From positions 20,476 through 84,475 of the IMG/VR virus record IMGVR_UViG_2684622670_000009: a stretch of DNA of 64,000 nt; one strand, 5' to 3'. The stretch comes from a virus. Taxonomy: Duplodnaviria > Heunggongvirae > Uroviricota > Caudoviricetes. This document shows, piece by piece, positions 12,061-13,623 of the stretch (position 1 is the first letter of the stretch; each line of letters opens with the position of its first letter). Under the pieces are notes generated by a model that worked only from the letters and a program-made list of their open reading frames with translations, did not search any database and was not told where the DNA came from. A program made the translations under genes and the position numbers.

Positions 12061-13322
12061 TCAGCGAACGTAAATAGTGCCGCCGTTCTCTTTTTCCCAT
12101 GCATCGCTACGTGCATAGCAAACATCGAGAAGTCTTCTTGCCGCAGTTTCTTCTAAACCCAATTCAACAACCAACTGCTCATGACGGCGGGTAACTACAT
12201 CAAATAGGCTATGCAGCCCTTTAGTTGCCAGATCATCAATGAATTCCGGTTCGAAGGGCAGCTCTGCATCTGCCAACATAACTTCTTGCGCCCACTCAAC
12301 TCGACGGACCAGTTCTGGACGGCGGCTTTCCATCTCTTTACAAATCATTTCATGGAAGAACTCTACCCAACCTTCCGGCTGGAACTCGCGGAAAATGGCC
12401 AACGGCTGGAAGTTTGGCATCAACCATTCGTTGATTCGGATATCAATGGCATAGCCCATGTCGCAGCAGAACTGATAAGCAAAGTCCAGCTTAGAAACGA
12501 TATAAGGACGTTCGTTATTAAACTCTTTAGGAGATGAGATCCCATAAGCCAGGAGGCGTGGGAAGAAGGAGATTTGCCCTAACGTCGGATGAGGTTTGCT
12601 TGCAGGGAAACGGCGCTCAGTAATGCCATACATTTCTTTCTTGAGCGTCGCAAATTTGGCATTTTCATTAACCAGCTCAGTAACCTCTGTTTTTTATTAG
12701 CAAATGCCACCCGTGCCTCGCTTGCATCTTTAATAGCCTTTTTGAGCTGTTGGTTAAGGTCGGCGACCTGCTTACGCAGTTCCTGTCGCTCGCTTTTAGC
12801 TTTGTTATAGCGTTTCTCAAGGTTAAAAGGATCAAGTTTCATGATCTCTTTATATTGAGATTTTAGCGTTGAAATCTGTGAGTTCCGCAGTTCAACCATC
12901 GCGGTCATTTCATTGAGTTTTGTTTCCAGCTCAATGCTTATACGTTCGGCATTATCAGCACGCTGGTTGGCGTCATGCGTCGCATCGTCAATTGCGTCCT
13001 GTTGCTGGCGTTTCAAATGTTCAATTTGCAGCTGAAGCTCTTCAATTTCTTTACCCTTCAGACCGAGGTCCAGCTGCATATTTTCAGCTGCATCTACCAG
13101 GTCATTATGGCTATCAGCCTCTGCGTTATAAACATCAATAAGCTGTGCGTGAAGCATCTCTGCTGACTGAACCGCATTATCAAAAAAACGCGCTGTGAGG
13201 TCATCACAACTAACTCGGCGTTGCGCGGCCCGGATGTTCTGGATAATGGCCGGGATACCGGCATTCAGGACGTCAGGGATAGATACATTTTCGATTGATT
13301 GGTTTTGTGCTGAAGTGTTCAT
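12061..13322 (-). pseudogene. Coiled-coil protein with C-terminal globular domain, split into two ORFs by a -1 frame break in an A6 run (or a programmed frameshift)
   Basis: ORFs 12579..13322 and 12061..12633 overlap; the frame switches at gct aat aaa aaa (12690-12700); an A7 run would give about 420 aa in one frame. Confidence 0.5.
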
Positions 13323-13323
13323 T

Positions 13324-13542
13324 TCAAAGTTCCGTATTAGCTTGTACTTCGGTCATTTTTCCTAAGTATGAAGGAGGAAGGACTACGCAATTTGTATCCA
13401 GCCCCTCACCCAGAGCAGCCTGTAAAATTCTGGCTAAGGAGAGTCTCTTGTTGCGATACCGGGTGATGACATGCCTGATATCGCCGGACGGCGTAACAAA
13501 GGCGATCAGCCAGTAGTGATATTTCCGTCGGAATGGCCACAT
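13324..13542 (-). CDS. Hypothetical 72-aa protein, first gene of a C1-operator-gated operon
   Basis: Stop overlaps the ATG of the downstream coiled-coil ORF (TGAAATG); promoter region carries two C1-operator-like sites. Confidence 0.5.
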   Translation of the reverse strand: MWPFRRKYHYWLIAFVTPSGDIRHVITRYRNKRLSLARILQAALGEGLDTNCVVLPPSYLGKMTEVQANTEL

Positions 13543-13556
13543 AGTGCACCTTATGG

Positions 13557-13622
13557 ATTGCTCTAATAAAAAACGTGATGAGTGTACATCACGTTTTAAA
13601 AATATGGAATTATTAGAGCAAT
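13557..13622. promoter_or_regulatory. Pair of inverted C1 operator-like sites flanking a perfect hairpin
   Basis: ATTGCTCTAATAAAAAA at 13557-13573 (+) and the reverse complement of ggaattattagagcaat at 13606-13622; hairpin AACGTGATG/CATCACGTT between them with A and T runs. Confidence 0.5.
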
Positions 13623-13623
13623 A

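What the first reader, a model, noticed from the sequence alone, without database searches (positions are those of the whole stretch)
12061..13623. C1-operator-gated operon of uncharacterised proteins
Two C1-operator-like 17-mers in inverted orientation (13557-13573, 13606-13622) flank a perfect hairpin and sit on the promoter of a 72-aa protein translationally coupled to the large coiled-coil protein, ending at a strong terminator (12008-12040). This implies repression in the lysogen and expression on induction. None of these proteins has a motif I recognise, so a role in host takeover or anti-defence is only a guess.
Basis: partly seen in the sequence, partly recalled or inferred. Interest (0 to 1): 0.5.

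Follow-up and report, generated by a model that had tools for sequence, protein, structure and literature searches.

The report
Known P1 pmgR–pmgS operon, frameshifted
This is the already-annotated C1-repressed pmgR–pmgS operon of a phage-P1-like plasmid; the regulatory features are real but not new, the small protein is known to be essential for making virions, and in this copy the large protein is broken by a one-base deletion.

Summary
Two inverted C1-operator 17-mers (13557-13573, 13606-13622) flank a perfect 11-bp hairpin upstream of a 72-aa gene. That gene is coupled (TGAAATG) to a large coiled-coil gene, which ends at a strong terminator (12013-12041).

None of this is new. The window is a P1/P7-type phage-plasmid, and the region is 96% identical to P1 pmgR-pmgS, whose GenBank record already annotates Op86a/Op86b and PpmgR. 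Published P1 knockouts show pmgR is essential (unjoined heads and tails). They show pmgS is dispensable, absent from the virion proteome, and has no effect on type I anti-restriction.

New here:
- The window's pmgS has a 1-nt deletion at 12689/12690 that splits the 420-aa protein. It is the only indel in the conserved pap-pmgO gene block. Other independent frameshift alleles exist in public data.
- PmgS ends in a RAD51-N-terminal-like (HhH)2 module. It belongs to a wider family (phrog_1660) found in early recombination/DNA-metabolism neighbourhoods, so its "head morphogenesis" label looks unfounded.
- The inter-operator hairpin shows compensatory substitutions and looks like the terminator of the upstream operon.

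Host takeover or anti-defence is unsupported.

The parts
13606..13622 (-). C1 operator equivalent to P1 OpmgRa (Op86a). It overlaps the predicted -35 (13616-13621, TTGCTC) of PpmgR.
   Evidence: Identical to the annotated P1/P7 operator. Matches the consensus with 3 mismatches and a perfect 13-nt core.
13593..13598 (-). Predicted -10 (TAAAAC) of PpmgR. It lies inside the 3' arm of the hairpin, so the transcript should start in or near the loop.
   Evidence: Coordinates transferred from the P1 annotation to identical sequence. My own consensus scan did not call it, so it remains a prediction.
13570..13597 (-). Perfect 11-bp hairpin with a 6-nt loop. On the - strand it is followed by a U-run. 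Proposed to be the intrinsic terminator of the upstream ppp-pmgQ transcript.
   Evidence: Fold z = -7.4. In four divergent P1-like lineages 97% of cells stay paired and 4 of 11 pairs change on both sides, while slid controls give 39-54% paired.
13557..13573 (+). C1 operator equivalent to P1 OpmgRb (Op86b). It is inverted relative to Op86a and lies downstream of the predicted transcription start, between it and the ribosome-binding site.
13324..13542 (-). pmgR (shtA in P7), 72 aa. Shine-Dalgarno AAGGTG at 13547-13552.
   Evidence: Five substitutions among 72 residues relative to P1 PmgR. Belongs to phrog_3177, E 1e-44. Essential in P1. AF2 model pLDDT 74 gave no informative fold match.
12579..13322 (-). 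5' part of pmgS (shtB in P7) as it now reads: residues 1-211 are authentic, followed by 36 out-of-frame residues and a stop.
12689..12690 (.). Site of the 1-nt deletion. A C is missing on the + strand, which is a G on the coding strand, directly 3' of an A6 run.
   Evidence: Three-way alignment with P1 and P7. It is the only indel in the conserved pap-pmgO gene block in the whole-window comparison with P1.
12061..12689 (-). 3' part of pmgS in the original frame: central alpha/beta domain plus the C-terminal (HhH)2 module. An internal ATG at 12633 opens a 190-aa ORF.
   Evidence: Substitutions downstream of the break are still 21 synonymous to 4 non-synonymous. (HhH)2 assignment.
12006..12041 (-). 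Intrinsic terminator after pmgS: 11-bp stem, 7-nt loop, T7.
   Evidence: Identical in P1 and P7.
11482..11988 (-). pap (HAD/PNKP-type phosphatase), the next gene downstream. No promoter of its own is annotated in P1, so it may be reached by read-through.
   Evidence: The pmgR-pmgS-pap order is conserved in L016, L017 and L011.

Best explanation
The region is the pmgR-pmgS operon of a P1/P7-type phage-plasmid and a standard member of the C1 regulon.

In the lysogen, monomeric C1 is expected to occupy two inverted operators. Op86a sits on the -35 of PpmgR. Op86b lies about 49 bp downstream, between the predicted transcription start and the ribosome-binding site. Together they would block initiation and act as a roadblock. 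This step is taken from the P1 annotation and was not tested here.

The conserved hairpin between the operators most likely acts as an RNA terminator. It would stop transcripts arriving from the upstream pmgL...ppp-pmgQ operon, which in P1 has a late promoter. The PpmgR transcript itself should start inside the loop and escape termination. This is inferred from the geometry and the covariation.

On C1 inactivation, one mRNA would give PmgR and, by close coupling (TGAAATG), PmgS, and would end at the terminator at 12013-12041.

PmgR is a small protein required for head completion, head-tail joining, or possibly DNA packaging; the P1 knockout shows the requirement but not the biochemical role.

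PmgS is a dispensable, non-virion protein. It has a long antiparallel coiled-coil hairpin, a central alpha/beta domain of unknown fold, and a C-terminal RAD51-N-terminal-like (HhH)2 module. It most probably binds DNA, or a DNA-bound partner, during early phage DNA metabolism, and is not a structural part of the particle. This is inferred from the fold, the profile match and the genomic context of relatives.

In this window pmgS is inactivated or severely reduced by a recent 1-nt deletion. Because P1 tolerates loss of pmgS, the prophage should remain viable.
For: Identity of the region: 96% identical over 1.9 kb to P1, P7 and 17 other phage records. The operators, promoter and genes are annotated there, and the regulatory sequence is base-for-base identical.

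Operators beyond chance: 12 sites against 0.39 expected.

Conservation of the design: the operator-hairpin-operator arrangement persists in P1-like lineages with 70%, 68% and 53% PmgS identity. The inner stem shows compensatory and G-U changes, and in L016 both operators carry the same C-to-T change.

Promoter class: P1's structural operons carry annotated late promoters (LPsit, LP23, LP26, LPpmgL, LPpac). pmgR has only a sigma-70 promoter with C1 operators.

Phenotypes: pmgR deletion is lethal, gives tails plus incomplete heads, and is complemented. pmgS deletion is viable with normal restriction, and PmgS is not in the LC-MS/MS virion list.

Family context: 99 representative clusters share the architecture.
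- In Aeromonas prophages the gene lies between DUF3799 (a RecE/YqaJ-type exonuclease family, by my own knowledge)/RecT and Dam/RdgC, on the early operon running from the cI/Cro switch to int.
- Elsewhere it lies next to integrase and a DnaQ-like exonuclease (my reading of the sequence, not domain-tested), a DNA methylase, RdgC-like/primase/Q, or lpa-pac-c1-ref.
- It was never found in a structural module in the sampled contexts.
- P1's own RdgC-family and Dam-type genes (hrdC, dmt) sit in another C1-controlled operon.

Frameshift.
Against: C1 binding, the transcription start and termination at the hairpin were not measured here, and PpmgR is only a predicted promoter. My consensus scan did not call that promoter. 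It also did not call the inner hairpin as a terminator, probably because the maximal stem consumes part of the T-run.

The covariation rests on only four independent lineages. Part of the T-run belongs to operator b, so the signals for 'terminator' and 'operator flank' are confounded.

In the P1 lineage the second HhH hairpin lacks the canonical G-h-G (LGLEE instead of GIG), so DNA binding by P1-type PmgS is not assured. (HhH)2 modules can also mediate protein contacts.

Foldseek E-values are weak (0.08 or higher) because the matched module is short.

A PmgR-like gene is conserved immediately upstream of PmgS-like genes across very divergent P1-type phage-plasmids. That argues for a functional link to PmgR's morphogenetic role.

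P7's annotators called the two genes sheath genes, and PHROGs files the family under head and packaging.
Confidence: 0.75

Rival explanations
1. PmgR and PmgS together are morphogenetic factors, as the names imply (pmg in P1, sht 'sheath' in P7, 'PmgS-like head morphogenesis' in PHROGs). PmgS would be a coiled-coil assembly chaperone or scaffold working with PmgR at the head-tail interface or in packaging.
For: A pmgR deletion blocks virion completion. The two genes are tightly coupled, and the pair is conserved in very divergent P1-type phage-plasmids. In L139 the pair sits directly upstream of lpa-pacA-pacB. There is a weak coiled-coil match to Pfam Phage_scaffold, E 0.67. The P7 and PHROG labels agree.
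Against: A pmgS deletion plaques normally and PmgS is not in the virion proteome. The gene lacks an annotated late promoter. Relatives in integrated prophages occur without PmgR, inside recombination or early modules. The only recognisable module is a DNA-binding-type (HhH)2. The 'morphogenetic' labels are marked 'putative' in the source record.
Confidence: 0.25
2. One reading: the operon encodes host-takeover or anti-defence effectors released on induction.
For: C1-controlled early expression. A non-essential accessory gene. Weak similarity of the coiled coil to the arms of SMC-type defence proteins JetC and LmuB, E 1e-4 to 1e-5, which could in principle hint at mimicry. The neighbour pap is a PNKP-type end-repair enzyme.
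Against: A pmgS deletion shows normal restriction on EcoA, EcoB and EcoK hosts. The PADLOC matches are confined to the coiled coil and far below family level. pmgR is an essential morphogenesis gene, not an accessory one. No toxin, enzyme or inhibitor motif was found.
Confidence: 0.1
3. The pmgS frameshift is a sequencing or assembly error and the gene is intact in the real plasmid.
For: A single missing base next to a homopolymer (A6 on the coding strand). Substitutions downstream still look purifying, 21 synonymous to 4 non-synonymous. None of the listed matches among 683 plasmid records and 669 complete E. coli records shares the deletion. Most similar truncated alleles are singletons from automated assemblies.
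Against: The homopolymer length itself is unchanged; the base lost is the G after it. The rest of about 50 kb of P1-homologous sequence shows no scatter of 1-nt indels in conserved genes. pmgS is dispensable, so loss is tolerated. At least five other independent frameshift alleles at different positions exist, one of them in an NCBI assembly.
Confidence: 0.35
4. The inter-operator hairpin does not act as an RNA terminator. It acts at DNA level (cruciform, C1-C1 looping geometry, or a site for Lxc or another protein), or as a 5'-UTR element of the pmgR mRNA.
For: The two operators themselves form a 13-bp outer inverted repeat, so the whole region can extrude as a cruciform. The promoter is only predicted. 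The terminator scan did not call it.
Against: Pairing is kept through G-T/G-U wobbles in L016 and L017, which preserve RNA helices but not DNA helices. A U-run follows the stem on the coding strand of the upstream operon. The stem lies immediately after the pmgQ stop codon.
Confidence: 0.25

Closest known systems
Phage P1 pmgR-pmgS operon with operators Op86a/Op86b (GenBank AF234172 / NC_005856)
   Same: Same genes, same order and same coupling. The operators, hairpin, Shine-Dalgarno and terminator are identical. Overall DNA identity is 96%, and PmgS is 98% identical after frame repair.
   Different: 1-nt deletion in pmgS. The left neighbourhood differs: an EcoR124-type hsdMSR locus replaces pmgT-humD.
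Phage P7 sht operon (shtA/shtB, Op(sht[a/b]); AF503408)
   Same: Same locus, 96.4% identity.
   Different: P7's annotators assign sheath functions. The published P1 knockouts do not bear that out: the pmgR deletion still makes complete tails.
RAD51/RadA N-terminal (HhH)2 domain; also RNAP alpha-CTD and NusA AR domains
   Different: There is no recombinase ATPase core. In P1-type proteins the second hairpin has lost the G-h-G signature. The module is attached to a coiled coil and an unknown alpha/beta domain.
SMC/Rad50-type coiled-coil proteins (including JetC and LmuB of defence systems)
   Same: A long antiparallel coiled-coil hairpin brings the N- and C-terminal regions together, with a conserved turn motif ((L/M)(D/E)PxxL) at the tip. 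Weak coiled-coil profile matches.
   Different: No ABC ATPase head, no Walker motifs and no hinge or zinc hook. The arms are only about 100 residues long. The similarity is compositional.
Other bipartite C1-controlled promoters of P1 (for example Op72a/b at ban, Op99 at c1)
   Same: More than one 17-bp asymmetric operator at a sigma-70 promoter.
   Different: At ban the two operators overlap to form a divalent site. Here they are about 49 bp apart, inverted, and enclose a conserved hairpin.

Membership tests
P1 C1-regulon operator | 17-bp asymmetric site matching ATTGCTCTAATAAATTT | tested here: met
   Both sites match with 3 mismatches and a perfect 13-nt core. The window holds 12 sites against 0.39 expected.
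P1 C1-regulon operator | Identity with an operator annotated in the P1/P7 reference genomes, placed on a promoter | tested here: met
   Base-for-base identical to OpmgRa/OpmgRb (Op86a/b). OpmgRa overlaps the annotated -35.
P1 C1-regulon operator | Binding of C1 repressor and repression in the lysogen | not testable with these tools
   Rests on the GenBank annotation. No held paper with Op86 binding data was found.
PmgS family (phrog_1660) | Full-length homology to the family profile | tested here: met
PmgS family (phrog_1660) | Intact reading frame of about 400-430 aa | tested here: not met
   The 1-nt deletion splits the gene into 247-aa and 190-aa ORFs.
(HhH)2 DNA-binding module (RAD51 N-terminal / RNAP alpha-CTD type) | Five-helix fold with two helix-hairpin-helix motifs | tested here: met
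   [not shown]
(HhH)2 DNA-binding module (RAD51 N-terminal / RNAP alpha-CTD type) | Canonical G-h-G hairpins and demonstrated DNA binding | tested here: inconclusive
   Most distant relatives have KGIGxKxA, and Pfam HHH_5 hits 17 of 60 members. P1-type PmgS has LGLEE at that position. Binding cannot be tested here.
SMC/Rad50-like ATPases | ABC ATPase head with Walker A/B motifs flanking the coiled coil | tested here: not met
   No SMC_N or AAA domain in Pfam or NCBIfam. All matches fall in residues ~50-230 at scores far below the cut-offs (18 against 567 bits). By eye, the sequence has no GxxxxGK[ST] motif.
Phage virion structural / head-morphogenesis protein (PmgS) | Present in virions or required for particle formation, and expressed from a late promoter | tested here: not met
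   From the literature: not in the LC-MS/MS virion list, and the deletion is viable. No late promoter is annotated at pmgR-pmgS, unlike the structural operons. Relatives lie in early or recombination modules.
Phage morphogenesis factor (PmgR) | Loss blocks assembly of complete particles | not testable with these tools
   [not shown]
Intrinsic (Rho-independent) terminator - inner hairpin 13570-13597 | Stable stem-loop followed by a U-run on the transcribed strand, conserved by covariation | tested here: inconclusive
   The stem and U-run are present, and 4 of 11 pairs covary. The consensus scan did not call it, and there are only four lineages.
Intrinsic terminator - 12006-12041 | G+C-rich stem followed by a T-run | tested here: met
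   11 pairs, 6 of them G-C, then T7. -19.7 kcal/mol, z = -3.6.
Anti-restriction (Dar-type) function | Loss changes plating on restricting hosts | not testable with these tools
   From the literature: a pmgS deletion shows 'normal restriction' on EcoA, EcoB and EcoK hosts. Other defence systems have not been tested.

The most novel reading that the evidence does not exclude
PmgS and its ~100 representative relatives (phrog_1660, currently labelled 'head morphogenesis') would be an unrecognised class of phage early proteins. They would be ATPase-less, SMC-like coiled-coil hairpins carrying a RAD51-N-terminal-type (HhH)2 module and a novel alpha/beta domain, acting on DNA in recombination, replication or packaging-substrate formation. 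In P1-type phage-plasmids they would work with the essential 72-aa PmgR. In that case the 'unjoined heads and tails' phenotype of the pmgR deletion could reflect a DNA-packaging or DNA-maturation defect, not a head-tail connector defect.
Probability: 0.4. Interest if true: 0.45.

Novelty: already known. Interest (0 to 1): 0.25.

Why it matters
As a regulatory feature it adds nothing new. The operon, its promoter and both operators have been in the P1 reference annotation for two decades, and roughly one in eight complete E. coli genomes carries the locus.

Three smaller points have some value:
- **Annotation:** the label 'PmgS-like head morphogenesis', which is propagated widely, has no experimental basis. 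It conflicts with the domain content and genomic context found here.
- **PmgS and PmgR function:** the RAD51-N-like module and the recombination-module neighbourhood give a concrete, testable handle on a conserved P1 gene of unknown function. They also give an alternative reading of the essential pmgR phenotype.
- **Epidemiology:** pmgS has been used as a PCR marker for P1-like plasmids (PMC9603915). Recurrent frameshift alleles show the gene is expendable in natural plasmids.

Tried and rejected
- **Curated libraries:** Pfam, NCBIfam and PADLOC scans of PmgS gave only coiled-coil noise, and nothing for PmgR.
- **afdb50 fold library:** not available.
- **The search for related loci:** the diverse alignment failed because it had no conserved 7-10 column stretch. 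Two distant members gave no viral-contig relatives.
- **Pattern scan TCTAATAA-N(30-50)-TTATTAGA in viral contigs:** mostly unrelated AT-rich palindromes. Only 8 of 120 loci were P1-like, and 5 of those 8 were identical to P1, the other three differing at 1-5 bases.
- **Programmed frameshifting:** considered and rejected as the main reading. Related broken alleles shift at different positions, so there is no conserved slippery site. A low level of -1 slippage on the adjacent A6 run remains conceivable.
- **An obligate partner gene for PmgS across all contexts:** none found.
- **Primary literature:** Lobocka et al. 2004 (PMC523184) is not held, and no held paper mentions Op86.
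Full report
**1. What is there**

- On the - strand, an operator-like 17-mer (13622-13606, ATTGCTCTAATAATTCC) is followed by a perfect 11-bp stem with a 6-nt loop (13597-13570). A second 17-mer follows in the opposite orientation (13557-13573 on the + strand).
- Next come a Shine-Dalgarno AAGGTG (13552-13547), a 72-aa ORF (13542-13324), and one base later (TGAAATG) the start of a large ORF.
- A strong terminator closes the unit: 11-bp stem at 12041-12013 followed by T7.
- The operator motif is far from chance. The window has 12 matches within 3 mismatches of ATTGCTCTAATAAATTT, against 0.39 expected.
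- The nested inverted repeat folds with z = -7.4.

**2. What it is**

The window is a P1/P7-type phage-plasmid (Punavirus).
- The region is 96.0-96.4% identical over its full length to P1, P7, RCS47, SJ46 and other records. It is also present on 683 PLSDB plasmids and in 667 of 5,426 complete E. coli genomes.
- The P1 reference record annotates exactly these elements: OpmgRa (former Op86a, 'controls expression of pmgR and pmgS'), the predicted sigma-70 promoter PpmgR whose -35 lies inside that operator, OpmgRb (Op86b), pmgR (72 aa) and pmgS (420 aa).
- P7 calls the genes shtA and shtB, with Op(sht[a]) and Op(sht[b]).
- A three-way alignment shows the operators, hairpin, ribosome-binding site and terminator are base-for-base identical to P1 and P7.

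So the finding is a correct re-discovery of a known C1-regulon operon.

**3.

- In P1 and P7, pmgS is a single 1263-nt CDS. In the window one base is missing after + strand position 12689 (a G on the coding strand, directly after an A6 run).
- The gene therefore reads as PmgS residues 1-211 plus 36 out-of-frame residues (ORF 12579-13322). A separate 190-aa ORF (12061-12633) starts at the internal Met231.
- Downstream of the break, substitutions relative to P1 are still 21 synonymous to 4 non-synonymous, the same pattern as upstream (17:3). The lesion is therefore recent, or an error.
- Comparison of the whole window with the complete P1 genome shows long gap-free blocks and no scatter of single-base indels in conserved genes. 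This deletion is the only indel in the conserved pap-pmgO gene block, and every neighbouring ORF keeps its P1 length.
- None of the listed plasmid or E. coli chromosome matches carries the deletion.
- The protein database does hold at least five other truncated PmgS clusters that leave the frame at different residues (about 161, 168, 178 and 186, and others in more distant lineages). Four of them (P0023-P0026) end at the same alternate-frame stop as the window's ORF.

I read this as recurrent, tolerated loss of a dispensable gene. I give roughly one chance in three that this particular instance is a sequencing error.

**4. What is known experimentally (P1)**

- Gonzales et al. 2022 (PMC9024508) made in-frame single-gene deletions. 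The pmgR deletion gives fewer than 10^2 PFU/ml. [quoted passage not shown] PmgR was not detected in the virion proteome, and HHpred found nothing.
- The pmgS deletion produces infectious virions with 'normal restriction' on EcoA, EcoB and EcoK hosts, and PmgS is not among the LC-MS/MS virion proteins.
- A CRISPRi screen also scored pmgS as non-essential (PMC10695390).

The available data do not support the anti-defence guess.

**5. The proteins**

PmgR:
- The family is tiny, with 17 clusters among 5.8 billion proteins, all from P1-like elements.

PmgS:
- Curated libraries match only its own PHROG and coiled-coil noise.
- An AF2 model from 12 homologues (mean pLDDT 77) shows an N-terminal helix, a long antiparallel helical hairpin (41-160 / 166-232) with a turn at the conserved LDPxxL, a C-terminal alpha/beta domain (about 240-345) and a helical end (359-413).
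- A profile search with the C-terminal half against 1.84 billion representatives found 99 proteins, mostly 350-470 aa with the same layout.
- A 60-member alignment of these matches the RAD51 N-terminal domain by sequence at E 9.5e-8. Individually, 17 of 60 hit Pfam HHH_5 and 12 of 60 hit RNA_pol_A_CTD.
- Distant members have a canonical KGIGxKxA hairpin. P1-type PmgS has LGLEETAARRLL at that position, so DNA binding by the P1 protein itself is plausible but not assured.
- The central domain has no structural match in the PDB.
- There is no ATPase head. Resemblance to SMC, JetC and LmuB is limited to the coiled coil.

**6. Genomic context of relatives**

All sampled relatives belong to phrog_1660.

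P1-type phage-plasmids:
- In lineages with 70%, 68%, 53%, 28% and 27% PmgS identity, the block of pmgO/P-like genes, ppp, pmgQ-like, pmgR-like and pmgS-like genes is kept, often followed by a PNKP-type pap.
- A PmgR homologue is detectable immediately upstream even where PmgS identity has fallen to about 20%.
- In L139 the pair lies directly upstream of lpa, pacA/B-like genes, c1, a Cre-like integrase and ref.

Outside the P1 type, the PmgS-like gene occurs without PmgR:
- In Aeromonas prophages it sits in the operon running from the cI/Cro switch to int, between DUF3799 (a RecE/YqaJ-type exonuclease family, by my own knowledge)/RecT and Dam/RdgC.
- In an ~80-kb viral contig it follows the integrase and precedes what looks to me like a DnaQ-like exonuclease; I did not domain-test that neighbour.
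- In two metagenomic contigs it neighbours a C5 DNA methylase, or an RdgC-like gene, a primase-helicase and a Q antiterminator.

No other gene recurs across contexts, and none of the sampled neighbourhoods is a structural module. P1's own RdgC-family (hrdC) and Dam-type (dmt) genes sit in another C1-controlled operon.

This pattern, together with the (HhH)2 module, is why I favour an early DNA-directed role for PmgS over a structural one. The conserved pairing with pmgR in phage-plasmids keeps a link to PmgR's function open. Because the pmgR-deletion phenotype resembles that of the pacA control (heads that are not completed, plus tails), a packaging or DNA-maturation role for the pair is a reasonable alternative to 'head-tail joining'.

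**7. How the control region probably works**

- From the P1 annotation transferred to identical sequence, the -35 (13621-13616) lies inside Op86a and the -10 (13598-13593) lies inside the 3' arm of the hairpin. Op86b lies between the expected start (in or near the loop) and the Shine-Dalgarno. C1 at the two sites would block initiation and act as a roadblock. This is annotation plus inference.
- The hairpin sits immediately after the pmgQ stop codon and is followed on that strand by a U-run. In P1 the upstream pmgL-pmgQ operon has a late promoter and its own C1 operators.
- In four divergent lineages the stem keeps 97% of cells paired. Four of 11 pairs change on both sides, others are kept by G-U wobble, and slid controls fall to 39-54%. 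That favours selection on an RNA helix, most simply the terminator of the upstream transcript. The PpmgR transcript would escape it because it starts inside the structure.
- In L016 both operators carry the same C-to-T change, as expected if they co-evolve with their repressor.
- Caveats: only four lineages; the promoter is predicted; the consensus scans called neither this promoter nor this terminator.

**8. Verdict**

- The regulatory interpretation is supported, but it is already known.
- The functional guess (host takeover or anti-defence) is unsupported.
- Genuinely new but modest points: the frameshift in this copy and its recurrence elsewhere; the RAD51-N-like (HhH)2 module and recombination-module context of the PmgS family, which undercut its 'head morphogenesis' label; and the covariation evidence for the inter-operator hairpin.

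Noticed in passing
window 5138-11215 (+): A complete type I restriction-modification locus: hsdM 5138-6700, hsdS 6697-7977 and hsdR 8099-11215, with EcoR124_C, T1R_D3 and HSDR_N domains. It occupies the place of P1's pmgT-humD segment (P1 84.5-88.0 kb). The P1 record notes that the sequences flanking that segment match DNA upstream and downstream of the EcoDXXI and R124 hsd loci, so this plasmid carries the cassette those notes allude to.
   Followed up: partly
window 11438-11482 (-): An Op88-type C1 operator with 1 mismatch (11466-11482) and a promoter-like site (11466-11438). In P1 these drive pmgT. Here they point into the 3' end of the convergent hsdR gene, across a terminator-like hairpin at 11409-11433. 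A C1-controlled promoter may therefore be orphaned, or may fire antisense to hsdR on induction.
   Followed up: no
proteins P0023-P0028 (public assemblies): Six clusters of 242-249 aa are independently frameshifted pmgS alleles that shift at different residues. Four of them (P0023-P0026) end at the same alternate-frame stop as the window's ORF. This points to recurrent loss of pmgS, or recurrent assembly errors, in natural P1-like plasmids.
   Followed up: partly
window 12689-12696: The deletion lies directly 3' of an A6 run (coding strand AAT AAA AAA CAG). A -1 slip of tRNA-Lys on that run would restore the PmgS frame with a single Ala-to-Thr change, so a low level of full-length protein is conceivable. 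This is speculation from the sequence alone.
   Followed up: no
window 11482-11988 (-): pap, annotated as 'acid phosphatase' in P1, matches the PNKP-type HAD phosphatase domain (PF25109, E 3e-11). It is syntenic with pmgR-pmgS in divergent P1-like lineages and has no annotated promoter of its own in P1.
   Followed up: partly
window, whole: Twelve C1-operator-like sites at 573, 3087, 11466, 13557, 13606, 16323, 17230, 27222/27233 (an overlapping pair, as at ban), 31780, 47843 and 49994. These trace the C1 regulon of this plasmid.
   Followed up: no
L142 about 6730-6760: In a distant DarB- and Lpa-carrying phage-plasmid (PmgS about 20% identical), an uncalled PmgR-like ORF (6774-6998, E 4e-10) precedes the PmgS-like gene. 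Just upstream of it is a near-palindrome ATCTAATATATTATTAGAT that resembles two abutting C1-type operator cores.
   Followed up: no
proteins P0002, P0005, P0016: PmgS-containing proteins of 463-531 aa, two of them named 'DNA cytosine methyltransferase' (P0002) or 'metallophosphoesterase' (P0016). They look like gene fusions or miscalls created by rearrangements or indels at this locus in other plasmids.
   Followed up: no
[not shown]
   Followed up: partly
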